From Alkanindiges sp. WGS2144 (GTDB lineage: Bacteria; Pseudomonadota; Gammaproteobacteria; Pseudomonadales; Moraxellaceae), in assembly GCF_043950625.1 (NCBI RefSeq), contig NZ_CP171007.1: DNA of 32,000 bases; one strand, written 5' to 3'. A model generated the notes under the pieces. That model worked only from the letters and a program-made list of their open reading frames with translations, had not been told where the DNA came from and did no database searches. The position numbers and the translations under genes were made by a program. Shown here one piece after another: positions 4,137 to 21,539 of the stretch (within the stretch, counting starts at the first letter, position 1; each line of letters opens with the position of its first letter).

Positions 4137-5873
4137 ATGGTGCCGCATGAAACCGATCTGATTATTTTACTGGCTGCTGGCTTTGGCATGGCCTTGCTAT
4201 TTGGCTACCTTGCCGCACGCTTTAAACTCCCTCCCCTGATCGGTTATTTAATCGCTGGTATTATTATTAGCCCTAACACGCCAGGTATTGATGGTGACCC
4301 TGCACTTGCCAACCAGTTGGCTGAGCTGGGCGTCATGTTTTTAATGTTTGGCGTGGGGATGCACTTTTCGTTGTCAGATTTGCTGGCCGTGCGCCGTATC
4401 GCCCTGCCCGGTGCCATGTTGCAAATTACGGTAGCAACCTTAATGGGCATGGCACTGACCTTATGGTGGGGCTGGAGTCTTGGTGCTGCGCTGGTATTTG
4501 GCTTAAGCCTGTCCTGTGCCAGCACCGTGGTATTGCTAAAAGCTTTAGGTGACCGGGGTTTGCTTGACTCGGTCAATGGCCGCATTGCTGTAGGCTGGCT
4601 TTTGGTAGAAGACTTGGTGATGGTACTGGTGCTGGTACTACTACCGGCAATGGCAGCTTTGCTAGGCGGGGTGGTACCCTCAGCACAAGGTGACGCTGCC
4701 GAGCATAATATCTGGCTAACCCTGATTCTTACCCTGCTTAAGGTAACTGCCTTTATCGCCTTCATGCTGATTGTAGGCAAGCGCCTGATTCCCAAAATTA
4801 TGCTACTCGTGGCGCGTATCGGCTCACGGGAGCTATTTACCTTAACTGTTGTGGCTTCTGCGGTTAGTATTGCTTATGGCTCCTATGCGCTGTTTGGCGT
4901 ATCCATGGCATTAGGTGCATTTTTTGCCGGTATGGTGGTTAAGGAGTCGGACTTTAGCCGTCGGGCGGAGGAAGAAACCCAGCCTTTGCGTGAGATTTTT
5001 TCCATTCTGTTTTTTGTATCAGTGGGTATGCTGTTTGATCCCAGCATTGTGCTAGACCAGCCCCTACAAATTCTGGGGGTGGTTGCCATTATCATGCTGG
5101 GTAAAACCCTGGCTGCCATGGCACTGGTGCTGTTTTTTCGCTATCCACTCAACACGGCCTTAACAGTTGGGGCCAGCCTGGCACAAATCGGTGAATTTTC
5201 ATTTATTCTTGCAGCACTGGGTTTATCTTTAAAACTCATCACTCCCGAAGCACAAAACCTGATTCTGGCCGCAGCGCTCATTTCAATTAGTCTGAACTCA
5301 TTTATGTTTACTGCGGTTGAGCCGGTTCAGCGCTGGGTTCGTTCACGCTCACAGTTGGCGCGCCTATTGGAGCGTAGCAGTGATCCGCTGGCCATGCTGC
5401 CTGATGAAGTGGATCAGGCTTACCTAAAAAATCAGGTAGTGATTGTGGGCTATGGGGAAGTTGGCCGCCGTATTAGTCAGGCCTTGCAAGCTCAGCACAT
5501 TAAGGTGGTAATTGCTGAGGAAAACCGCGAAATTGTCGAAGATCTACGTCATCAGGGCGTTGCTGCGGTGTCAGGTGATGCCAGCGAACCTGCCGTACTG
5601 ATTCAGGCACATATTATGCACGCCAGCATGCTGGTGGTTTCCCCTATGGATATTCTGTACGTGCGGCGTATGGCCGAAATTGCCCGGCAATTAAATCCTA
5701 CTATTGAAATTATGCTATGCGCTGAAAGTATTGAAGAAGCCAGTGTACTGGAGCAGGAAGATATTGGACAGGTGTATTATGCCAAGTCAGAAATGGCGTC
5801 TAATATGACTCATCATATCCTGTTTCAAATGGGTTTGGATGAACGTAGCCTGTCTGCAAAAGCGCACCACTAA
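4137..5873 (+). CDS. ybaL: CPA2-family monovalent cation/H+ antiporter with C-terminal RCK/TrkA-N domain (YbaL/KefB-like)
   Basis: 578-aa polytopic membrane ORF that is colinear with E. coli YbaL as I recall it (LAELGVMFLMFGVGMHFS, IAVGWLLVEDLVMVLVL, SRELFTL, LFFVSVGMLFDP, LAQIGEFSFIL). The C-terminus has a VVIVGYGEVGRR Rossmann motif. Confidence 0.9.
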   Translation: MVPHETDLIILLAAGFGMALLFGYLAARFKLPPLIGYLIAGIIISPNTPGIDGDPALANQLAELGVMFLMFGVGMHFSLSDLLAVRRIALPGAMLQITVATLMGMALTLWWGWSLGAALVFGLSLSCASTVVLLKALGDRGLLDSVNGRIAVGWLLVEDLVMVLVLVLLPAMAALLGGVVPSAQGDAAEHNIWLTLILTLLKVTAFIAFMLIVGKRLIPKIMLLVARIGSRELFTLTVVASAVSIAYGSYALFGVSMALGAFFAGMVVKESDFSRRAEEETQPLREIFSILFFVSVGMLFDPSIVLDQPLQILGVVAIIMLGKTLAAMALVLFFRYPLNTALTVGASLAQIGEFSFILAALGLSLKLITPEAQNLILAAALISISLNSFMFTAVEPVQRWVRSRSQLARLLERSSDPLAMLPDEVDQAYLKNQVVIVGYGEVGRRISQALQAQHIKVVIAEENREIVEDLRHQGVAAVSGDASEPAVLIQAHIMHASMLVVSPMDILYVRRMAEIARQLNPTIEIMLCAESIEEASVLEQEDIGQVYYAKSEMASNMTHHILFQMGLDERSLSAKAHH

Positions 5874-14290: not shown

Positions 14291-15121
14291 ATGGAACCTA
14301 TGGTGGTGATGGCTGCGCGTGCGGCACAAACAGTAGGCAGTGAAATTTTAAAAGCACATCAGAACCGTCATAAGCTGGACCTGCAAATTGAGAGCAAGGG
14401 TATCGATGGTCCAGTGACTCGCCTTGATCGTTATATTGAAGAACTCACCATTGCCACCTTAAAAAAAAGCTATCCCAAACACAGTTTTCTGGGTGAAGAA
14501 TTTGGTCTACAAGAAGGCCAGGGCAACGATGCTGACTGGTGCTGGGTGATTGACCCTCTGGATGGCACCGTCAACTTTATTCAGGGCTATCCGCATTTTT
14601 GTGTATCCATTGCTGTGCAACATAAAGGGATTACCCAGCATGGTGTGATTTATGACCCGGTTAAAGATGAGCTATTTTCGGCCAGCCGCGGTCGTGGCGC
14701 TGTTTTAAATCAACGCCGTATCCGCATGACGCCAAAAGACAACCTGAAAGACAGCTTCTTAGCCGTTGGCTATCCATTTGCAGCCATGCGTAATGGCGAA
14801 GTGGTTTCCTATGCGGAGCAGCATTTTAATACTCTGCTTGCCATTACCAAGGCTGGCGCGTCTTTCCGCCGTGGTGGCTCAGCTGCGCTGGATCTGGCCT
14901 ATGTGGCTGCTGGTCGTTTTGATGGTTATTTTGAGCTTGGTTTAAAGCCGTGGGATCTGGCTGCCGGTGAACTCATTGTCAAAGAAGCAGGTGGCACGGT
15001 AGTCGATGCCAAAGGTGGCAGTGACTGCTTTAACAATGGTCAAATTGTTGCTACTTCCATGAAATTACTCAAGCCGCTCATGCAAGCCATTGTACCGGCC
15101 TGGGGCGAGGCGATTCGCTAA
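14291..15121 (+). CDS. suhB: Inositol monophosphatase family protein (SuhB-like)
   Basis: IMPase motifs are present: WVIDPLDGTVNF, GSAALDLAYVAAGRFDGY and WDLAAG. Confidence 0.88.
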   Translation: MEPMVVMAARAAQTVGSEILKAHQNRHKLDLQIESKGIDGPVTRLDRYIEELTIATLKKSYPKHSFLGEEFGLQEGQGNDADWCWVIDPLDGTVNFIQGYPHFCVSIAVQHKGITQHGVIYDPVKDELFSASRGRGAVLNQRRIRMTPKDNLKDSFLAVGYPFAAMRNGEVVSYAEQHFNTLLAITKAGASFRRGGSAALDLAYVAAGRFDGYFELGLKPWDLAAGELIVKEAGGTVVDAKGGSDCFNNGQIVATSMKLLKPLMQAIVPAWGEAIR

Positions 15122-15136
15122 TTCACATCTATCCTG

Positions 15137-15166
15137 CAAAAAGCAGTCTACTACAGGCTGCTTTTT
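15137..15166 (+). terminator. Rho-independent terminator after suhB-like gene
   Basis: The stem AAAAAGCAG ... CTGCTTTTT is followed by T residues. Confidence 0.6.
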
Positions 15167-15252
15167 GAGTATCTGGCATTCAAAATGAGCGACCTTGTCC
15201 GCCCAATTTTTAACGATAACAACTGGCCGCTGCTCAGGTGGAAAATAGCTTA

Positions 15253-16022
15253 ATGTGGAAAATAACCAGAATTTTTATTTTGCTGATTATTCTGGCGGTG
15301 GTGATTATCCAGTCCTTGCAGGACAAAGCTGATTTAACCTGGAAAAACAGCTTTTATGTGGCGGTGTATCCTGTGAATGCCGCTCAAAGTCCACAAGTTG
15401 AGCAATATATTCAAACGCTGCAAGCAAGCGATTTTAGAGCGATGCGGCTGAGTTTTTAAATAGTGAAGCCAAACGCTATGGCCTGCCGCTATACCGGCCA
15501 ATTAATATTGTGCTGGGTAAGCCGGTTTCTACTTTACCCCCTGCCCCACCAGTAAATGGCGATATTTTTAAGGTGATGCTGTGGAGTTTAAAACTGCGTT
15601 ATTTTGCCTGGAAGCATGAGCAGGTATTTAGCATTCATCCAAAGATTCAATTGTATTTATTGTACTTTGATCCCAAACAGCATCCGGCACTTAGCCACTC
15701 TACCGCACTACAAAAAGGCCGCGTGGGACGAATAAACCTGTTTGGAAATACTGAATATAACCAACAAAATCTGGTCATTTTAAGCCATGAGTTACTGTAT
15801 ACACTGGGTGCTAGCGATAAATATAATTTTGGCGATAATATGCCTATTTTCCCTGATGGCTTTGCTTATCCACAACAACAACCATTTTATCCACAAGCCA
15901 AGGCGGAACTGATGGGTGGACGTATTCCCTTAACTGATAGCAAAGCCATTATTCCGCGTGACCTAAGCCAGACTGTAATTGGAGAAAAGACAGCACGCGA
16001 GATTGGCTGGGTGAAGGATTAA
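15253..16022 (+). pseudogene. Conserved-looking membrane-anchored protein split by a frameshift (two ORFs, 15238-15459 and 15510-16022)
   Basis: The upstream frame (MWKITRIFILLIILAVVIIQ..., one N-terminal TM) stops at 15457-15459. The downstream frame is already open from 15438 (SDAAEFLNSEAKRYGLPLYRPINIVLGKP...) but has no ATG of its own until far downstream. Frames shift from 1 to 0, consistent with a 1-nt deletion or a sequencing error near 15430-15459. Confidence 0.7.
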
Positions 16023-16038
16023 GTTAACGCATAGTAGC

Positions 16039-16068
16039 TTGCATTTAATACGAATAAATAGCTAGAAT
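16039..16068 (+). promoter_or_regulatory. Candidate sigma70 promoter for the PAAR operon
   Basis: TTGCAT (16039-16044), an 18-nt spacer, then TAGAAT (16063-16068), located about 40 nt upstream of the PAAR ATG. This is a sequence match only. Confidence 0.35.
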
Positions 16069-16109
16069 TCATGGCTCTTGCAGGTATGCAATAAAAATAA
16101 GGTATAAAA

Positions 16110-16673
16110 ATGAGTGTGGCTTATGCAATTGTCGGCAGTCCAACCACAGGCGGCGGGCAGATTACTACAGGGGATTCTTTATTTATCATCGATGGAACAC
16201 CCATAGCTTGTGTAGGAGACAGAGCCACTTGTCCGTTACATCAGTCTGATGTCATCATCGTTACGGGTGATCCCGCATGTATTATCAATGGAAAGGCTGC
16301 CGCAAGAGTCGGTGACAGCTTATCCTGCGGCTGCAAAATATTGCCCAAGCAAGTTCGAGTAGTAGGAGATAATTTTCCTAGCAAAAGCCCAGTGGCTTCG
16401 CCTGCACCTTCGTCTTCTCACCTGAACAGTAATTTTAATTCCAATTCTGGCACTGATGAGCAACAGTTACATGGTCTTAAAATTCAATTTAAAGACGAGT
16501 TAAGCAAACAGCCAGTGCCTTATTTATATTACAAATTAAAAAAACCTGATGGTCACTTTGTAGAAGGACTAACCGATGAGCAAGGCTATACAGAAGAAAT
16601 TCAGGGCGGTTATGAAGCCGAAGAAATAGAAATTATTAATTTAGACTTAGATAAACCTTATACGCAGGAATAA
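16110..16673 (+). CDS. PAAR-domain protein (T6SS spike-tip) with Ser/Pro/Asn-rich linker and about 65-aa beta-rich C-terminal extension
   Basis: Residues 1-88 show the PAAR pattern: GGGQITTG..., IDGTPIACVGDRATCP, INGKAAARVGDSLSCG. The linker reads FPSKSPVASPAPSSSHLNSNFNSNSG. The C-terminal segment LKIQFKDELSKQPVPYLYYKLKKPDGHFVEGLTDEQGYTEEI resembles transthyretin/CarboxypepD_reg-like beta-sandwich repeats. That last assignment rests on pattern recognition only. Confidence 0.85.
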   Translation: MSVAYAIVGSPTTGGGQITTGDSLFIIDGTPIACVGDRATCPLHQSDVIIVTGDPACIINGKAAARVGDSLSCGCKILPKQVRVVGDNFPSKSPVASPAPSSSHLNSNFNSNSGTDEQQLHGLKIQFKDELSKQPVPYLYYKLKKPDGHFVEGLTDEQGYTEEIQGGYEAEEIEIINLDLDKPYTQE

Positions 16674-16679
16674 TAAATT

Positions 16680-17000
16680 ATGGCTACCAGTCGCGTTGAT
16701 TATCAACAACTTGAAGAGCAAGCATATCCACAAGAGATAGAAACTTGCGAGTTTACCGAGCCACTTTGCAATAACTATATTAAAGTGAGAAATATTAAAG
16801 TCATTCAGCCTTATAATTTTTTTATGTCACCTGAACAATGGGCTGAAGTAGAAAGAATTAATGGCCTGGAATTTCGCCTTGCCTTAAAGTTTGGTTTAGA
16901 AAATGACATGCGGTTTTATAGTGACGCGTTAACCAACCGCCTGTCCTTTCATACCATGATGTATATTAAATTTGCTGAATATGTGCGAAAAACTCTTTAA
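16680..17000 (+). CDS. Hypothetical acidic 106-aa protein tightly linked to PAAR gene (candidate cargo-effector N-terminal part or cognate immunity)
   Basis: The ATG lies 6 nt after the PAAR stop codon. There is no signal peptide and I recognise no motif. The ORF sits in AT-rich island DNA. Confidence 0.55.
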   Translation: MATSRVDYQQLEEQAYPQEIETCEFTEPLCNNYIKVRNIKVIQPYNFFMSPEQWAEVERINGLEFRLALKFGLENDMRFYSDALTNRLSFHTMMYIKFAEYVRKTL

Positions 17001-17082
17001 ATGAAGTTAAAAAACTAGTTGCAGAGTTTCAGTCCGCAGCTTTTAAAGCGCGAACTACGAGTGTTTTTCAGCAGCCAAGATA

Positions 17083-17262
17083 ATGACAGTGAAAGATTTA
17101 GTAGAAAAATCTTATCTTGCTCCAAGAGCTGCGCTTGACATTCATCAACTCACGGTAAATAAAGGCCCTATCACTATCAATAGAACGTTGTATAAGAAAG
17201 TTTTTAAACGAGATTATGACGTTGATATAGTTAATTTTATAAAGGTGAGGGGGTTTATTTAG
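17083..17262 (+). CDS. Short 59-aa ORF (MTVKDLVEKSYLAPRAALDIHQL...); possibly a fragment of a decayed larger gene
   Basis: Translated by hand because it is below the track cutoff. Its ATG overlaps the TAA of the preceding 34-codon open frame (TAATG at 17081-17085). I recognise no homology. Confidence 0.3.
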   Translation: MTVKDLVEKSYLAPRAALDIHQLTVNKGPITINRTLYKKVFKRDYDVDIVNFIKVRGFI

Positions 17263-17567
17263 GCGATCCTGACAATGTAATTTATGAAGAATTGAGAATG
17301 TAAAATATGAAATTATTTGTAATTGTTTTCTTATGCCTTTCTTCCTCTATAGCCTGTGCAAAAAAGGATGATAATAACTCGGAGATTAAACAAGCGCTTG
17401 ATACAAGCATGCAATTATTAAAACTTGATGAACCTATTTATATAGAAATTGAAGCTGATAAGATAGATAAATTACATCATGCTATTTTTCTAAGTACAGT
17501 GATTAAATTAGGTGCAATTAAAGATTAGACCTCTTGCGAAAGTAAAAACTGCCTCAATATAGATTTC

Positions 17568-17966
17568 ATGAAATATCAGAAATTAAACCGTTTTTCAGAT
17601 TCTGAATTCAAGCGCTTGGTTGGTGTACCTCGACCAGTTTTTAGTGAAATGGTCGAAGTTTTAAAAGAAGCAGAATCACTTAAAAAGAAATCTGGGCGTC
17701 CTCATACTTTAGTTATAGAGGATCAATTATTATTAACACTCAATTACTTACGGAATTACAGCACTCAATTGGAATTGGCTGCAAATTACCATATCGCTGA
17801 AAGTAATGTGAATCGAACTATTAAAAAGGTTGAAGATGCATTAATGAAATCAAGGCGTTTTACCCTGCCAAAACGAAGCATTACAACAGCAGACGAACAA
17901 TTTAACTGGGTCATTATTGATGCTACAGAATGTTCAATAGAACGCCCGAAAAAAAAATCAGAGTAA
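17568..17966 (+). CDS. IS transposase OrfA (HTH part)
   Basis: 132-aa ORF that ends just after the A9 run (17949-17957). The sequence up to IIDATECSIERPKK is the N-terminal and first catalytic-Asp region of DDE_Tnp_4-type transposases. Confidence 0.85.
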   Translation: MKYQKLNRFSDSEFKRLVGVPRPVFSEMVEVLKEAESLKKKSGRPHTLVIEDQLLLTLNYLRNYSTQLELAANYHIAESNVNRTIKKVEDALMKSRRFTLPKRSITTADEQFNWVIIDATECSIERPKKKSE

Positions 17967-18390
17967 GTTCTACAGTGGTAAAAAGAAGAAACATACGCTA
18001 AAAGCCCAAGTGATCTATCATCCGAAGAGTAAACAAATCATAGGAGTAGATATATCGTCTGGCAGTCAGCATGATATTAAATTGGCAAGAAAAACAGTAA
18101 AAAAATTCAAACATTTTGAATATGTTATGACCGATTTAGGGTACTATGGGTTAGAGCAAGATGGCTTTAAATTATTGATGCCAATAAAGAAAAAGAAGAA
18201 TTTACCCTTATTTGATGTTGAGAAAAAGTACAATAAAATGATTGGAAAAATACGAGTTGTAATCGAACATATTAACAGTCAATTGAAAAGATTTAGAATA
18301 CTAAGTGAACGCTATCGAAATCGACGGAAAAGATTCGGTTTACGCATTAACTTAATCGCTGCACTGGTAAACCGGATGAACTTGCAATAA
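17941..18390 (+). CDS. IS transposase OrfB (DDE part, +1 frame, no own ATG)
   Basis: The frame is open from 17941: NARKKNQSKFYSGKKKKHTLKAQVIYHP...GSQHD...TDLGY...IEHINSQLKRFRIL. The FYSGKKKxHTLK motif normally follows ERPKK directly in one polypeptide. An A8 run instead of A9 would give a continuous protein of about 273 aa. Confidence 0.8.
   Translation, partial: NARKKNQSKFYSGKKKKHTLKAQVIYHPKSKQIIGVDISSGSQHDIKLARKTVKKFKHFEYVMTDLGYYGLEQDGFKLLMPIKKKKNLPLFDVEKKYNKMIGKIRVVIEHINSQLKRFRILSERYRNRRKRFGLRINLIAALVNRMNLQ
17949..17957 (+). promoter_or_regulatory. A9 homopolymer at the OrfA/OrfB junction (candidate +1 recoding or transcriptional-slippage site)
   Basis: CCG AAA AAA AAA TCA. The same A9 run is present in copy 2 (19625-19633). 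Confidence 0.5.
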
Positions 18391-18665
18391 CGACTTTCGC
18401 AAGAGGTCTAATATACAAATATTTTAGGCACTACATTAAATGACTCTAACTATTTTGACTTATGGGAAACAAATACTTTATGTTTAGCAGCAAACTACGC
18501 TATAAATTATGCTTATACCGACAAAACAGTTAATAATATAAAATCTATCTACTGGTTAGAAAAGCAGCAAGTCGACTGGATAAAAACGCTTAGAGATAAA
18601 AGTTTTCGTAAAACACTAGAGCAAACAAACTGTCTAGATAAAATATCTAAGCAAGCCTTAAAAAA

Positions 18666-19142
18666 ATGAAATATCTTATTGCTTTTATGTGCTCTCTTTT
18701 CCTCTCTGCCTGTACACTAATGAACAATCACTCTTCTGATAAATTAGAAGTAGGAAGCTCCTTAAAAATTACCAAAAGTATTTTAAAGAATGAAAGTGAT
18801 CTTTACTATTATATAGGCAATAAACATATTAACCAAACCAATGACTTAATTTATAAGAAAATTTTGTTCAAGTTGGGTGTTTTGAATGATTTCGCAACAT
18901 ATTTAAAAACAGACTTAACGAGCTTAGAACTAAATTCTATGCGAGAAATAAATGCTTATTGCCTTGCTACAGACTTTGTGTTGAATTACAAATCACAAAT
19001 TTTACCGCCTAACGAAATGTATCAACCTTTATTAATTGAATTGAAAAAGAATCAACTTATCTGGATTGATAGACTTAGCGAGAATAAACAAGTAGAGATT
19101 AATTATTCCTGTTTAGAGAAACTTAAATTGCAGACTACGTAA
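18666..19142 (+). CDS. Lipoprotein (paralog 2), candidate periplasmic immunity protein
   Basis: 158-aa ORF with signal peptide and lipobox MKYLIAFMCSLFLSAC. Its ATG overlaps the stop of paralog 1 (ATGA at 18666-18669). It shares the colinear motifs KLGxxxD, NxxCLAxxxxxNY, WIxxL and CLxK with paralog 1. Confidence 0.8.
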   Translation: MKYLIAFMCSLFLSACTLMNNHSSDKLEVGSSLKITKSILKNESDLYYYIGNKHINQTNDLIYKKILFKLGVLNDFATYLKTDLTSLELNSMREINAYCLATDFVLNYKSQILPPNEMYQPLLIELKKNQLIWIDRLSENKQVEINYSCLEKLKLQTT

Positions 19143-19243
19143 AGTCTAATGATTATAATTCTAGGGTTGACGAATATAATAAAACTTATCATAAATAAGA
19201 TTAGACCTCTTGCGAAAGTAAAAACTGCCTCAATATAGATTTC

Positions 19244-19642
19244 ATGAAATATCAGAAATTAAACCGTTTTTCAGATTCTGAATTCAAGCGCTTGGTTGGT
19301 GTACCTCGACCAGTTTTTAGTGAAATGGTCGAAGTTTTAAAAGAAGCAGAATCACTTAAAAAGAAATCTGGGCGTCCTCATACTTTAGTTATAGAGGATC
19401 AATTATTATTAACACTCAATTACTTACGGAATTACAGCACTCAATTGGAATTGGCTGCAAATTACCATATCGCTGAAAGTAATGTGAATCGAACTATTAA
19501 AAAGGTTGAAGATGCATTAATGAAATCAAGACGTTTTACCCTGCCAAAACGAAGCATTACAACAGCAGACGAACAATTTAACTGGGTCATTATTGATGCT
19601 ACAGAATGTTCAATAGAACGCCCGAAAAAAAAATCAGAGTAA
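19244..19642 (+). CDS. IS transposase OrfA, copy 2
   Basis: The protein is identical to 17568-17966. Confidence 0.85.
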   Translation: MKYQKLNRFSDSEFKRLVGVPRPVFSEMVEVLKEAESLKKKSGRPHTLVIEDQLLLTLNYLRNYSTQLELAANYHIAESNVNRTIKKVEDALMKSRRFTLPKRSITTADEQFNWVIIDATECSIERPKKKSE

Positions 19643-19736
19643 GTTCTACAGTGGTAAAAAGAAGAAACATACTGAATAGCCACCGATTTTGTAGACACCT
19701 TTTAGTTAGATAAAATGGCTAATTAACGAGGTGCTT

Positions 19737-20015
19737 ATGAGCAGTAAACGATACCCTGAAGAATTCAAAATTGAAGCAGTAAAACAAGTCACTGAGAAAG
19801 GTCATAGTGTGGCTGAAGTTGCTACACGTTTAGGAACCACTACACATAGTCTGTATGCTTGGATCAAACGTTATGATCCACAGCAGCCCAAGACAACAGA
19901 ATCTAGTGATCCAACTACAGAATTAGCGAAATTAAAAAAAGAGCTGCAAAGGGTCACTGAAGAAAGGGACATATTAAAAAAGGCCGCGGTGTACTTCGCA
20001 AGCCAGTCCAAATGA
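19737..20015 (+). CDS. IS3-family transposase OrfA (HTH)
   Basis: MSSKRYPEEFKIEAVKQVTEKGHSVAEVATRLGTTTHSLYAWIKRY...LKKELQRVTEERDILKKAAVYFA is the typical IS3 OrfA HTH plus leucine zipper. GAGG lies upstream of ATG 19737. Confidence 0.9.
   Translation: MSSKRYPEEFKIEAVKQVTEKGHSVAEVATRLGTTTHSLYAWIKRYDPQQPKTTESSDPTTELAKLKKELQRVTEERDILKKAAVYFASQSK
19976..19982 (+). promoter_or_regulatory. A_AAA_AAG programmed -1 frameshift heptamer of the IS3 element
   Basis: TTA AAA AAG is in the orfA frame. The -1 frame is open from here into orfB (KKGRGVLRKPVQMRYAF...). Confidence 0.7.
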
Positions 20016-20884
20016 GGTACGCCTTTATTCGGGACAACCAACATATATGGTCTGTTCGTCGTTTATGTTCAACGTTAGATGTTCATCACAGTGGTTATTA
20101 CGCCTGGTTAAAGAAACCTACCAGTATAACTGCGAGGAAGCGGCAACAGCTTTCAGGATTAATTAAACAGTTCTGGTTGGAATCTGGCGGAGTCTACGGT
20201 TATCGCAAGATTCATTGTGATTTGAAAGACGTTGGCGAAAGTTGCGGTATCAATCGAGTACATCGACTCATGAAGGCGAATGGTCTCAAGTCACAGCGTG
20301 GCTATCGCAAACCTAGAGCTAATGTTAGTACTCCATCGATTGTGGCTCGAAATACTTTAGACAGACAGTTTAACCCCACCCAGCCCAACCAGTTGTGGGT
20401 GACTGACATCACTTATATTCGCACTCATGAAGGATGGCTGTATCTTGCAGTAGTAATCGACCTATTCTCACGGCTAGTCGTTGGCTGGTCTATGAAGTCG
20501 AGAATCACAACAGATCTGGTTTTAGATGCTCTACTGATGGCTTTGTGGCGAAGAAGCCCAAAGAACAAAGTCCTGATTCATTCTGATCAAGGTAGCCAAT
20601 ACACCAGTCATGAATGGCAGACATTTCTCAAGCATCACAACCTTGAAAGCAGTATGAGCCGGCGTGGAAACTGCCATGATAATGCTGTTGCTGAGAGCTT
20701 CTTTCAGCTGTTAAAGCGAGAGAGGATCAAGAAGAAAATCTATGTGACAAGAACTGAAGCAAGGTCGGATATCTTTGAATATATAGAGATGTTCTATAAC
20801 TCAAAACGCAGACATGGTTCCAATGGTCAGCGTTCTCCATTAGATTATGAAAAGGCCCATCAAAAGATGGTTATGTGTGTCTAG
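20012..20884 (+). CDS. IS3-family transposase OrfB (DDE integrase core)
   Basis: 290-aa ORF in the -1 frame relative to orfA. It carries the rve-type motifs WVTDITYIRT, LYLAVVIDLFSR, HSDQGSQYTS and CHDNAVAESFF. Confidence 0.92.
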   Translation: MRYAFIRDNQHIWSVRRLCSTLDVHHSGYYAWLKKPTSITARKRQQLSGLIKQFWLESGGVYGYRKIHCDLKDVGESCGINRVHRLMKANGLKSQRGYRKPRANVSTPSIVARNTLDRQFNPTQPNQLWVTDITYIRTHEGWLYLAVVIDLFSRLVVGWSMKSRITTDLVLDALLMALWRRSPKNKVLIHSDQGSQYTSHEWQTFLKHHNLESSMSRRGNCHDNAVAESFFQLLKRERIKKKIYVTRTEARSDIFEYIEMFYNSKRRHGSNGQRSPLDYEKAHQKMVMCV

Positions 20885-20903
20885 AATTTTGGTGGCTATT
20901 CAT

Positions 20904-21299
20904 ACGCTAAAAGCCCAAGTGATCTATCATCCGAAGAGCAAACAAATCATAGGAGTAGATATATCGTCTGGCAGTCAGCATGATATTAAATTGGCAAGAA
21001 AAACAGTAAAAAAATTCAAACATTTTGAATATGTTATGACCGATTTAGGGTACTATGGGTTAGAGCAAGATGGCTTTAAATTATTGATGCCAATAAAGAA
21101 AAAGAAGAATTTACCCTTATTTGATGTTGAGAAAAAGTACAATAAAATGATTGGAAAAATACGAGTTGTAATCGAACATATTAACAGTCAATTGAAAAGA
21201 TTTAGAATACTAAGTGAACGCTATCGAAATCGACGGAAAAGATTCGGTTTACGCATTAACTTAATCGCTGCACTGGTAAACCGGATGAACTTGCAATAA
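20904..21299 (+). pseudogene. 3' portion of IS copy-2 OrfB, separated from its 5' part by the IS3 insertion
   Basis: It has the same reading frame and protein as 17995-18390. The track ORF 20847-21299 is a read-through from the IS3 end into this fragment. Confidence 0.85.
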
Positions 21300-21539
21300 C
21301 GACTTTCGCAAGAGGTCTAATCTTTATAAAAAATTTGATTTTCAAGCTTACGGCGTAGAACCAAAAGCATTAAAAAACAACAATGAATATACTCATGAAA
21401 TTTTAATGAAGCTTTTTTTATTATAGGGCTTTCTTATAAAAGCCTCTTTGCCTTAGATATTAGCAAACTATTAAACTGGCATGATGTGCCTCAATAACCC
21501 ACCACGCCAGCTTTCTAGCTTTAATATCTATTAAAAACT

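What the first reader, a model, noticed from the sequence alone, without database searches (positions are those of the whole stretch)
16110..16673. PAAR protein with an unusual short C-terminal extension: adaptor (TTR-like) or miniature toxin?
Residues of about 1-88 form a complete PAAR cone, with AAAR in place of the name-giving PAAR motif. A low-complexity S/P/N linker follows, then a domain of only about 65 aa (LKIQFKDELSKQPVPYLYYKLKKPDGHFVEGLTDEQGYTEEIQGGYEAEEIEIINLD). The pattern D-x-x-x-x-P ... Y-x-L ... DG ... G-x-TD-x-x-G-Y-T recalls transthyretin/carboxypeptidase-regulatory beta-sandwiches. Those folds are known as PAAR extensions thought to recruit cargo effectors. The domain is too small for most known toxin domains. 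Two models follow. In the first, it is a cargo-docking domain for the downstream gene product. In the second, it is a very small novel toxin whose immunity gene is the immediately downstream acidic 106-aa ORF.
Basis: partly seen in the sequence, partly recalled or inferred. Interest (0 to 1): 0.7.

Follow-up and report, generated by a model that had tools for sequence, protein, structure and literature searches.

The report
PAAR spike tip with effector-docking domain
This gene encodes a type VI secretion spike-tip (PAAR) protein carrying a small transthyretin-like docking module for the toxin encoded next door; it is a known kind of design, and here the toxin gene and its first immunity gene are broken.

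Summary
Window 16110-16673 (+) encodes a 187-aa protein: a PAAR cone (Pfam PF05488, E 1.9e-21), a disordered S/P/N linker, and a ~65-aa all-beta C-terminal module.

The adaptor reading is supported. A profile of the module matches, at sequence level, the TTR modules of EAEC VgrG1 (6sjl residues 777-831, the Tle1-binding domain; E 3.5e-7) and P. aeruginosa VgrG2b (6h56; E 2.9e-9).

In 29 Acinetobacter/Alkanindiges loci the protein is followed by a ~200-250-aa gene and then small genes, mostly lipoproteins. The module's sequence type tracks the downstream gene family (21/21 vs 0/8; r = 0.98). The PAAR cone does not: cones 93% identical carry different modules and effectors.

The mini-toxin/immunity reading is refuted. 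The "106-aa acidic ORF" is the 5' fragment of a ~208-aa gene of that downstream family, broken by three 1-bp deletions. The next gene, a lipoprotein in the immunity position, is split by an IS element.

This is a new member of a known kind (PAAR-TTR plus cargo effector, as in V. cholerae VCA0284/TseH), in a decaying locus. The side interest is the downstream family: uncharacterised, with an all-alpha fold unmatched in the PDB.

The parts
16110..16673 (+). PAAR-TTR gene (187 aa), intact
   Evidence: ORF. 100% identical to the Alkanindiges sp. WGS2144 PAAR domain-containing protein. Whole-gene dN/dS 0.14 against L007.
16110..16373 (+). PAAR cone, residues 1-88 (AAAR variant of the motif at residues 63-66)
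   Evidence: PF05488 E 1.9e-21, residues 8-78. Foldseek 4jiw_D E 1.3e-4, TMt 0.73. C34, C41, H44, C73 and C75 are invariant in the family.
16374..16460 (+). Disordered S/P/N-rich linker, residues 89-117
   Evidence: pLDDT <50 for residues 82-121. dN/dS 0.79. Length and sequence vary across the family. Acts as the recombination boundary between cone and module.
16461..16670 (+). TTR-like (prealbumin-like) docking module, residues 118-187, with motif G-x-T-D-x-x-G-x-T and tail D-L-D-x-P
   Evidence: Profile hits 6h56_A E 2.9e-9 and 6sjl_A residues 777-831 E 3.5e-7. hhalign to a VgrG C-terminus, probability 97%. All-beta, pLDDT 70-76. dN/dS 0.05. Tail motif specific to FAM1-linked loci, 21/21 vs 0/8.
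16680..17303 (+). Candidate cargo effector gene (FAM1), a pseudogene with three 1-bp deletions. Annotated ORFs 16680-17000 (106 aa) and 17083-17262 (59 aa) are fragments of it.
   Evidence: tblastn of the A. baumannii neighbour matches in three frames, E 2.8e-32. DNA alignment to the intact L007 gene. Three-frame translation. Adding one base at each site gives a 208-aa ORF that matches the family end to end.
16988..16992 (+). Frameshift site 1 (frame 0 to 2), at an A5 run; creates the stop at 16998-17000
17064..17068 (+). Frameshift site 2 (frame 2 to 1): T5 here, T6 in L007
17241..17245 (+). Frameshift site 3 (frame 1 to 0), at AAAGG. The downstream frame reads GVYLGDPDNV, matching the family C-terminus.
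17307..17526 (+). 5' part of the lipoprotein gene in the immunity position (FAM0), cut by an IS
   Evidence: Lipoprotein signal MKLFVIVFLCLSSSIAC. FAM0 membership. Excising the IS restores a 158-aa ORF similar to L007 D3.
17524..18412 (+). IS5-family insertion sequence (two ORFs, 20-nt perfect inverted repeats)
   Evidence: Inverted repeats 17524-17543 / 18393-18412. HTH_Tnp_4 and DDE_Tnp_1.
18413..18669 (+). 3' part of the IS-split lipoprotein gene
18666..19142 (+). Second FAM0 lipoprotein gene (158 aa), intact; orthologue of L007 D2
19197..21326 (+). Second copy of the IS5-family element, itself interrupted by an IS3-family element (19673-20902)
   Evidence: Repeats D1, D2, I2 and I3. HTH_Tnp_1 plus rve, and DDE_Tnp_1.

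Best explanation
The gene encodes a type VI secretion spike-tip protein of the 'PAAR plus TTR extension' kind.

Proposed mechanism:
- The N-terminal PAAR cone caps the VgrG trimer.
- A ~30-residue disordered linker tethers a ~65-residue transthyretin-like beta module.
- That module is the docking site for one specific cargo effector, the ~200-250-aa protein encoded immediately downstream (here family 'FAM1').
- By analogy with EAEC VgrG1-TTR/Tle1, the effector probably docks through its N-terminal ~38 residues. These are predicted unstructured on their own and carry two invariant cysteines. The likely mode is beta-strand complementation of the small sandwich.
- The effector probably acts in the target's periplasm, because the downstream immunity-position genes encode lipoproteins.

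Module, effector and immunity genes are inherited and exchanged as one cassette behind a more conserved, interchangeable PAAR cone.

In this Alkanindiges genome the cassette is decaying. The effector gene has three frameshifts and the first lipoprotein gene is split by an IS. The PAAR-TTR gene and a second lipoprotein gene remain intact.

Shown here: domain identities, homology to VgrG TTR modules, synteny, co-variation, gene disruption.
Inferred: physical docking, the complementation mode, periplasmic action, toxicity of FAM1.
For: 1. PAAR cone: PF05488 E 1.9e-21; Foldseek 4jiw_D and 4jiv_D.
2. C-terminal module profile against PDB sequences: VgrG2b TTR region (6h56 residues 11-54) E 2.9e-9; EAEC VgrG1 residues 777-831 E 3.5e-7. 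[quoted passage not shown]
3. The profile finds 1,903 proteins. Those sampled are VgrGs with the module at the C-terminus, PAAR proteins, and more distantly SpaA/CarboxypepD_reg/SdrD_B repeat adhesins. hhalign to a VgrG C-terminus gives probability 97%. Foldseek gives consistent but weak transthyretin/HIUase hits and the 6sjl VgrG.
4. Synteny: in 29 loci with an intact PAAR-TTR gene, a 200-253-aa gene follows within a few bases, usually followed by one to three small genes.
5. Co-variation: the tail motif D[LA][SD]xP is present in 21/21 FAM1 loci and 0/8 others (Fisher 2e-7). Within FAM1, r(module, effector) = 0.98, partial r = 0.97 controlling for the cone, Mantel p ~5e-4. For the cone, r = 0.41.
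6. Cones up to 93% identical carry unrelated modules (27% identity) and different effector families. The nearest neighbour by module shares the effector family in 28/29 loci.
7. One partner family (FAM2) is the Tpe metallopeptidase family (6h56 residues 98-230, E 4e-15). Its A. baylyi member Tpe1, which sits downstream of a PAAR-2 gene, is an experimentally shown T6SS effector (PMC6899460; PMC6838775). In VgrG2b the same TTR and Tpe domains are fused in one chain.
8. Module dN/dS is 0.05.
9. The FAM1 model has a disordered N-terminal 38 residues followed by a confident alpha domain.
10. The genus Alkanindiges is reported to have T6SS-1 core homologues (PMC6838775).
Against: - No direct binding or secretion data exist for this PAAR class. 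Even for the V. cholerae analogue (VCA0284/TseH), the cited paper treated the adaptor role as a proposal (PMC4453574).
[quoted passage not shown] They considered only vgrG-linked effectors and reported no effector next to paar genes (PMC6833914).
- Co-variation of adjacent DNA can arise from linkage alone.
- The window sequence alone gives no Pfam TTR-clan hit. The AF2 confidence for the module is only moderate.
- FAM1 has no recognisable toxin domain or fold, so its effector status rests on position and on the immunity-like neighbours.
- I did not verify that this genome has a T6SS.
- In this genome the partner gene is broken, so docking cannot be the module's current function here.
Confidence: 0.72

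Rival explanations
1. The C-terminal ~65 residues are a miniature toxin fused to PAAR (an 'evolved PAAR'), and the downstream 106-aa acidic ORF is its immunity protein.
For: PAAR proteins with C-terminal toxins followed by immunity genes are a known arrangement (background in PMC6833914). The 106-aa ORF is mildly acidic, pI 5.2.
Against: - The 106-aa ORF is a fragment of a frameshifted ~208-aa gene that is intact in relatives.
- The module is homologous to the non-toxic TTR modules of VgrGs.
- It is conserved across loci whose downstream genes belong to unrelated families.
- A. baylyi and A. baumannii extended PAARs showed no intrinsic toxicity according to PMC6833914.
Confidence: 0.02
2. The TTR-like module is not effector-specific. 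It is a general structural or adhesive appendage (for example target-surface binding, spike or VgrG selection, or stabilisation of the tip), and its match with the downstream gene reflects only genetic linkage.
For: - The same superfamily forms stalk repeats in Gram-positive adhesins (SpaA/CnaB/SdrD_B hits).
- tagP (an extended PAAR of A. baumannii) affected fitness traits without changing killing (PMC11348943).
- Adjacent sequences share recombination history.
Against: - The closest relatives are spike-borne TTRs, one of them solved in complex with its cargo (6sjl).
- The exchange boundary lies exactly at the linker, so the module travels with the effector rather than with the cone that contacts VgrG.
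- The module tail is family-specific.
- TTR and Tpe are fused in one chain in VgrG2b but split across adjacent genes in Acinetobacter.
Confidence: 0.15
3. The frameshifts are assembly errors: the effector gene is intact in the living strain and the cassette is functional apart from the IS-split lipoprotein gene.
For: All three lesions are 1-bp deletions at or next to homopolymers. Their net effect (-3) restores the original frame. The contig is 2.38 Mb, which suggests a long-read assembly. The 5' part of the gene shows dN/dS 0.11.
Against: - Intact genes in the window show no frameshift across 91 homopolymer runs of >=5 nt (20.4 kb). That gives P ~1e-3 for three hits among the 7 runs in this gene.
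- The neighbouring immunity-position gene is inactivated by an IS, which cannot be a base-calling error. The upstream gene carries a 2-bp indel. This fits a locus under relaxed selection.
Confidence: 0.2

Closest known systems
Vibrio cholerae PAAR2 (VCA0284) with TseH/TsiH
   Same: A PAAR protein with a C-terminal TTR extension, directly followed by a ~223-aa cargo effector gene and its immunity gene. The TTR is proposed to act as an adaptor (PMC4453574).
   Different: The effector families are unrelated: TseH is a predicted amidase/peptidase, while FAM1 is an unknown all-alpha family. I could not compare the VCA0284 sequence directly. Here the locus is degraded.
EAEC VgrG1 C-terminal TTR domain bound to Tle1 (PDB 6sjl)
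   Same: Sequence-level homology of the module (E 3.5e-7 over VgrG1 residues 777-831). Same size (~63 aa), same position after a flexible linker on a spike protein, and the cargo gene lies nearby. Binding is by complementation with the effector's N-terminal beta-strand (PMC10715212).
   Different: There the module is carried by VgrG (three copies per spike); here it is carried by PAAR (one copy per spike). The cargo is a phospholipase, not FAM1. Extra contacts with the gp5 needle are available to Tle1 but are not obviously available here.
P. aeruginosa VgrG2b (spike-TTR-Tpe metallopeptidase, PDB 6h56) and A. baylyi PAAR-2 + Tpe1/Tpi1
   Same: Best PDB hit of the module (E 2.9e-9). The Acinetobacter sister loci of this PAAR class carry Tpe-family effectors (E 4e-15), that is, a split version of the fused TTR-Tpe unit. 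Tpe1 is a validated T6SS effector downstream of a PAAR-2 gene.
   Different: The window's partner gene is FAM1, not a metallopeptidase. The module's tail differs: D-L-D-x-P here, against His/Cys-rich tails in Tpe-linked PAARs.
Acinetobacter 'PAAR-2a' / 'extended CT' PAAR proteins (Repizo 2019; Lewis 2019)
   Same: This protein is a member of that class: 41-51% identity over the full length to many Acinetobacter proteins of 170-200 aa.
   Different: Those surveys found no identifiable domain in the extension, called its purpose unresolved, and (for A. baumannii) reported no co-located effector. Here the extension is assigned to the spike TTR family and a conserved downstream effector-like family is defined.
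B. fragilis PAAR for Bte2 (PDB 8gra)
   Same: An extended PAAR (222 aa) solved as part of a cargo delivery vehicle. The cone is homologous (E 7.7e-4).
   Different: The extension is not detectably related to the module studied here.

Membership tests
PAAR-repeat spike-tip proteins (PF05488) | PAAR_motif profile above Pfam's gathering score | tested here: met
   76.5 bits against a cutoff of 27, residues 8-78
PAAR-repeat spike-tip proteins (PF05488) | Conical beta fold like 4jiw/4jiv | tested here: met
   AF2 pLDDT 83-93 for residues 1-80. Foldseek 4jiw_D E 1.3e-4, TMt 0.73.
PAAR-repeat spike-tip proteins (PF05488) | Conserved Cys/His metal-site residues | tested here: met
   C34, C41, H44, C73 and C75 are invariant in 48 family members and present here. 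Metal binding itself is not testable with these tools.
PAAR-repeat spike-tip proteins (PF05488) | Binds the VgrG tip of a T6SS present in the same genome | not testable with these tools
   No T6SS core genes lie in the 32-kb window. The genus is reported to have T6SS-1 core homologues (PMC6838775).
Spike-borne TTR-like adaptor module (VgrG1-EAEC / VgrG2b type) | Sequence homology to solved spike TTR modules | tested here: met
   Profile A3: 6h56_A E 2.9e-9; 6sjl_A residues 777-831 E 3.5e-7. hhalign to a VgrG C-terminus, probability 97%.
Spike-borne TTR-like adaptor module (VgrG1-EAEC / VgrG2b type) | Small beta-sandwich (prealbumin-like) fold | tested here: inconclusive
   All-beta prediction at pLDDT 70-76. 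Foldseek transthyretin/HIUase hits cover ~44 residues at E 0.3-1.4 only.
Spike-borne TTR-like adaptor module (VgrG1-EAEC / VgrG2b type) | C-terminal position on a spike protein, after a flexible linker | tested here: met
   Residues 118-187 follow the disordered residues 82-121
Spike-borne TTR-like adaptor module (VgrG1-EAEC / VgrG2b type) | Cognate cargo effector encoded adjacent and co-varying with the module | tested here: met
   29/29 loci have the downstream gene. Motif present in 21/21 vs 0/8; r = 0.98. In the window the gene is present but frameshifted.
Spike-borne TTR-like adaptor module (VgrG1-EAEC / VgrG2b type) | Physical binding of the effector, and effector delivery that depends on the module | not testable with these tools
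   Needs multimer modelling or experiments
Pfam Transthyretin-clan families (PF13620 CarboxypepD_reg, PF00576, PF17802 SpaA) | Profile match of the window's module | tested here: not met
   No Pfam hit at E<=5 for residues 116-187. The relationship is seen only at superfamily level, through profile hits to SpaA/CnaB proteins.
Evolved PAAR toxins (PAAR fused to a toxin, with immunity downstream) | A recognisable toxin domain in the extension and a complete immunity gene immediately downstream | tested here: not met
   The extension is TTR-like. The downstream 106-aa ORF is a fragment of a larger gene.
Tpe1/Tpi1 metallopeptidase effector loci | Downstream HExxH protein homologous to VgrG2b C-ter / Tpe1 | tested here: not met
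   True for sister loci (FAM2). The window's partner is FAM1, with no HExxH and no match.

The most novel reading that the evidence does not exclude
The 'domain-less' C-terminal extensions of the whole Acinetobacter/Alkanindiges PAAR-2a class are effector-specific mini-TTR docking modules, exchanged as a cassette with their cargo. One such cargo (FAM1, the gene broken in this window) would be a previously unrecognised, Moraxellaceae-restricted T6SS effector family. It would have a new all-alpha fold and lipoprotein immunity, and would load onto PAAR through its disordered, two-cysteine N-terminus by beta-strand complementation.
Probability: 0.45. Interest if true: 0.55.

Novelty: new member of a known kind. 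Interest (0 to 1): 0.33.

Why it matters
PAAR-TTR proteins have long been proposed as effector adaptors with little direct proof. In Acinetobacter the extended PAAR C-termini were explicitly left unexplained.

Three results turn that open point into a directly testable hypothesis:
- The extension is assigned to the spike TTR family.
- Extension, effector and immunity genes move as one cassette behind an interchangeable cone.
- The cassette boundary lies at the linker.

The analysis also flags an unstudied effector-like family (FAM1) in a clinically important genus.

For this window specifically, the practical lessons concern annotation. The 106-aa and 59-aa 'hypothetical proteins' are pieces of one pseudogene, and the 73-aa ORF is the front half of an IS-split lipoprotein gene.

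Tried and rejected
- Pfam and NCBIfam scans of the C-terminal module alone, and of the 106-, 59-, 73- and 158-aa ORFs, gave nothing usable.
- phmmer of the whole protein against the PDB found only PAAR cones, not the TTR modules; a family profile was needed.
- FAM1 had no significant match in PDB sequences, NCBIfam or Pfam, or by Foldseek of a confident model. Best results were alphaRep at E 0.035, judged spurious, and Foldseek E 3.2.
- FAM6 (a third partner family) is also unassignable.
- The promoter/terminator scan around the locus was no better than shuffles: 12 promoter-like sites against 13.3 expected.
- Programmed frameshifting was considered and rejected for the effector gene. There are three separate shifts, and orthologues are uninterrupted.
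- The Ringel 2017 and Shneider 2013 papers could not be retrieved, so statements about them are second-hand, via the papers cited.
Fused or foreign sequences are not accepted by the predictor, so the docking step could not be modelled.
- The exact target-site duplication of the IS could not be fixed. Excising 886 or 889 nt both restore the reading frame.
Full report
**1. What is there**

It is 100% identical to a deposited 'PAAR domain-containing protein' of Alkanindiges sp. WGS2144, family Moraxellaceae.

- PAAR cone. Pfam's PAAR_motif covers residues 8-78 (E 1.9e-21, 76.5 bits against a cutoff of 27). An AlphaFold2 model built on a 48-sequence family alignment is confident for residues 1-80 (pLDDT 83-93). 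That part matches the solved PAAR cones 4jiw_D and 4jiv_D (Foldseek E 1.3e-4 and 4.5e-4, TM on target 0.73). The 'AAAR' variant of the motif is the family consensus.
- Linker. Residues 82-121 are predicted disordered. This S/P/N-rich stretch evolves almost neutrally (dN/dS 0.79 against the 87%-identical orthologue L007).
- C-terminal module. Residues ~118-187 form a conserved all-beta module (pLDDT ~70-76). G153, T155, D156, G159 and T161 are nearly invariant. Purifying selection is very strong (dN/dS 0.05).

**2. What the C-terminal module is**

The single sequence gives no Pfam or NCBIfam hit, even at E<=5. A profile of 24 modules from the family is decisive. Against all PDB sequences its best two hits are:
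- the TTR-like region of P. aeruginosa VgrG2b (6h56 residues 11-54, E 2.9e-9);

Weak hits to CnaB/SpaA adhesin domains follow.

The VgrG1 TTR (residues 779-841, about 63 aa) hangs on a flexible linker. [quoted passage not shown]

A search of 1.84 billion representative proteins with the same profile gave 1,903 hits at E<=1e-3. Pfam scans of a sample of these show three groups:
- VgrG spikes with the module at the very C-terminus;
- PAAR proteins, one of them with two copies;
- more distantly, Gram-positive surface proteins built of SpaA, CarboxypepD_reg and SdrD_B prealbumin-like repeats.

Profile-profile comparison with one such VgrG gives probability 97%. Foldseek on the whole model adds a consistent but weak series of transthyretin and 5-hydroxyisourate-hydrolase matches, plus the 6sjl VgrG.

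The closest relatives are the TTR modules of T6SS spike proteins.

**3. The neighbourhood, and why the toxin/immunity model fails**

In A. baumannii and A. baylyi the orthologous PAAR gene is followed by a 225-231-aa gene and then a 151-163-aa gene.

The A. baumannii 231-aa protein matches the window in three consecutive pieces in three different frames, with a joint E of 2.8e-32:
- 16719-16991;
- 16988-17068;
- 17074-17244.

A scan of species-representative genomes returned 80 loci. Among them is L007, a syntenic relative with the order suhB-like gene, 255-aa gene, PAAR, 201-aa gene, two lipoprotein genes, topA.

The window is ~97% identical to L007 over the first ~440 nt of the downstream gene. 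Relative to L007 it lacks one base near 16988 and one in a T-run at 17064-17068. A third shift at ~17241-17245 returns to the original frame, which then reads '...GVYLGDPDNV...', the family's C-terminal consensus. Adding one base at each site yields a continuous 208-aa ORF.

So the '106-aa acidic ORF' (pI 5.2) and the 59-aa ORF are fragments of one gene. It is not a small immunity gene.

The 73-aa ORF that follows (17307-17528) carries a lipoprotein signal and is cut by an IS5-family element with perfect 20-nt inverted repeats at 17524-17543 and 18393-18412. Removing the element restores a 158-aa lipoprotein ORF homologous to L007's third gene.

A second, intact lipoprotein paralogue follows at 18666-19142. 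After it comes another copy of the IS, itself interrupted by an IS3-family element.

Sequencing error is the less likely explanation for the frameshifts. Intact genes of the window show none across 91 homopolymer runs of >=5 nt, giving P ~1e-3 for three hits in this one gene. The adjacent IS insertion is certainly real. Read-level confirmation is still needed.

**4. Evidence that the module is tied to the downstream gene**

Among loci with an intact PAAR-TTR gene, all 29 have a 200-253-aa gene starting within a few bases of the PAAR stop. Clustering gives three families:
- FAM1: 22 loci plus both window fragments.
- FAM2: 8 loci, with an HExxH motif.
- FAM6: 2 loci.

The second genes form matching families. 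FAM0 lipoproteins accompany most FAM1 loci and include the window's 73-aa and 158-aa ORFs.

The module's tail is diagnostic:
- D[LA][SD]xP in 21/21 FAM1 loci and 0/8 others (Fisher 2e-7);
- His/Cys-rich tails (EEHQHG, DKDHEHCCKP) with FAM2.

Within FAM1, pairwise identity of the module tracks that of the effector almost perfectly (r = 0.98; partial r = 0.97 controlling for the cone; Mantel p ~5e-4). The cone correlates only weakly (r = 0.41).

The cone does not respect effector families. Mean cone identity is 0.78 within families and 0.76 between them. Cones 93% identical (L012 vs L018) carry modules only 27% identical, with different effector families. The nearest neighbour by module shares the effector family in 28/29 loci.

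The exchange boundary therefore lies in the linker. Module, effector and immunity genes form a cassette behind an interchangeable cone. Linkage alone could produce co-variation, but it does not explain why the boundary falls exactly between the VgrG-binding part and the module.

**5. A validated sister system**

FAM2 proteins are homologous to the metallopeptidase domain of VgrG2b (6h56 residues 98-230, E 4e-15), that is, the Tpe family.

A. baylyi Tpe1/Tpi1 is an experimentally shown T6SS effector-immunity pair that acts in the periplasm (PMC6899460). tpe1 lies downstream of a PAAR-2 gene, and 20 of 21 Acinetobacter tpe1 orthologues lie next to PAAR genes (PMC6838775).

In VgrG2b the TTR and the Tpe domain are fused in one chain. 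In Acinetobacter the TTR is on PAAR and the Tpe domain is the next gene. The same pair of modules thus occurs both fused and split, which fits a direct functional connection.

**6. The partner in this window (FAM1)**

- The family is annotated only as 'hypothetical' and was found only in Acinetobacter and Alkanindiges.
- It has no Pfam, NCBIfam or PDB sequence match.
- An AF2 model of an intact member has a low-confidence N-terminal 38 residues, containing the invariant C23 and C30, followed by a confident all-alpha domain (pLDDT 85-94, pTM 0.75).
- That domain has no Foldseek match in the PDB (best E 3.2).
- Invariant polar residues (E64, D76, H91, E116, R125, N161) suggest an enzyme, but I cannot name an activity.
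- Its effector status is inferred from its position, its lipoprotein neighbours (often in tandem arrays), and the parallel with Tpe1.

**7. Mechanism proposed**

- Shown: the PAAR cone, the flexible linker, a TTR-like module homologous to cargo-binding VgrG TTRs, a co-inherited downstream gene, and degradation of the cassette here.
- Inferred: the module docks one copy of the cognate effector on the spike tip. Docking is probably through the effector's unstructured N-terminus completing the small beta-sandwich, as Tle1 does on VgrG1. The effector acts in the periplasm and is neutralised by the lipoprotein.
- In this genome: the effector is inactivated and the first lipoprotein gene is destroyed. 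The PAAR-TTR gene is intact and may still serve as a plain spike tip. I did not verify a T6SS in this genome; the genus is reported to have T6SS-1 core homologues.

**8. Comparison with what is known, and novelty**

The architecture is the known 'PAAR with TTR extension plus downstream cargo effector', as in V. cholerae VCA0284/TseH (PMC4453574). The protein belongs to the Acinetobacter 'PAAR-2a / extended-CT' class.

Two 2019 surveys described that class as having no identifiable domain in the extension, and called its purpose unresolved. One of them reported no co-located effectors in A. baumannii.

What is added here: the domain assignment, the cassette structure with its boundary at the linker, and the definition of FAM1/FAM0.

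For the finding as stated, this is a new member of a known kind, sitting in a decaying locus, so interest is modest. The more novel but unproven part is FAM1 as a new effector family with a new fold.

Noticed in passing
window 16680-17303; L007:5571-6176; L001:6547-7242: The gene family downstream of this PAAR class (FAM1, ~200-245 aa) is uncharacterised and restricted to Acinetobacter/Alkanindiges. It has no Pfam, NCBIfam or PDB match. Its confident all-alpha AF2 domain (pTM 0.75) has no Foldseek hit in the PDB. Invariant residues are C23, C30, E64, D76, H91, E116, R125 and N161.
   Followed up: partly
L018, L019, L020, L022, L025, L031, L036 (PAAR C-termini); L005:6001-6540: PAAR-TTR proteins paired with Tpe-like HExxH effectors end in His/Cys-rich tails (EEHQHG, DKDHEHCCKP). 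Those paired with FAM1 never do. The tails might contact or mask the metallopeptidase zinc site.
   Followed up: no
window 17082-17303 vs L007:5990-6176: Identity to L007 drops from ~97% to ~55-60% in the 3' third of the effector gene. The first lipoprotein gene also differs between the two, while the window's second lipoprotein gene (18666-19142) is the orthologue of L007's first. This looks like replacement of the effector 3' end plus its immunity gene, with the old immunity gene retained.
   Followed up: partly
window 14291-17000 vs L007: Synonymous divergence is much lower in the PAAR gene (dS 0.43) and the effector 5' part (0.25) than in the flanking suhB-like gene (1.27). This suggests the island was exchanged more recently than the flanks diverged.
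   Followed up: no
window 15238-16022: The conserved 255-aa gene upstream of PAAR (intact in L007 at 4146-4913) is split here into 73-aa and 170-aa ORFs by a 2-bp indel near 15442. This is a second broken gene next to the island.
   Followed up: partly
window 17524-18412 and 19197-21326: There are two identical copies of an IS5-family element. The second is itself interrupted by an IS3-family element (19673-20902, HTH_Tnp_1 plus rve). This IS-in-IS nesting sits between the island and topA.
   Followed up: partly
L008, L010, L015, L026, L028, L031 (downstream of PAAR): Several Acinetobacter loci carry two or three tandem paralogues of the lipoprotein gene after the effector. This is typical of orphan-immunity arrays.
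   Followed up: no
P0065-P0113; L038-L086: A second abundant Acinetobacter PAAR class of ~279-280 aa shares only the cone (about 60% identity over residues 1-88). It has a different, longer extension that I did not analyse.
   Followed up: no
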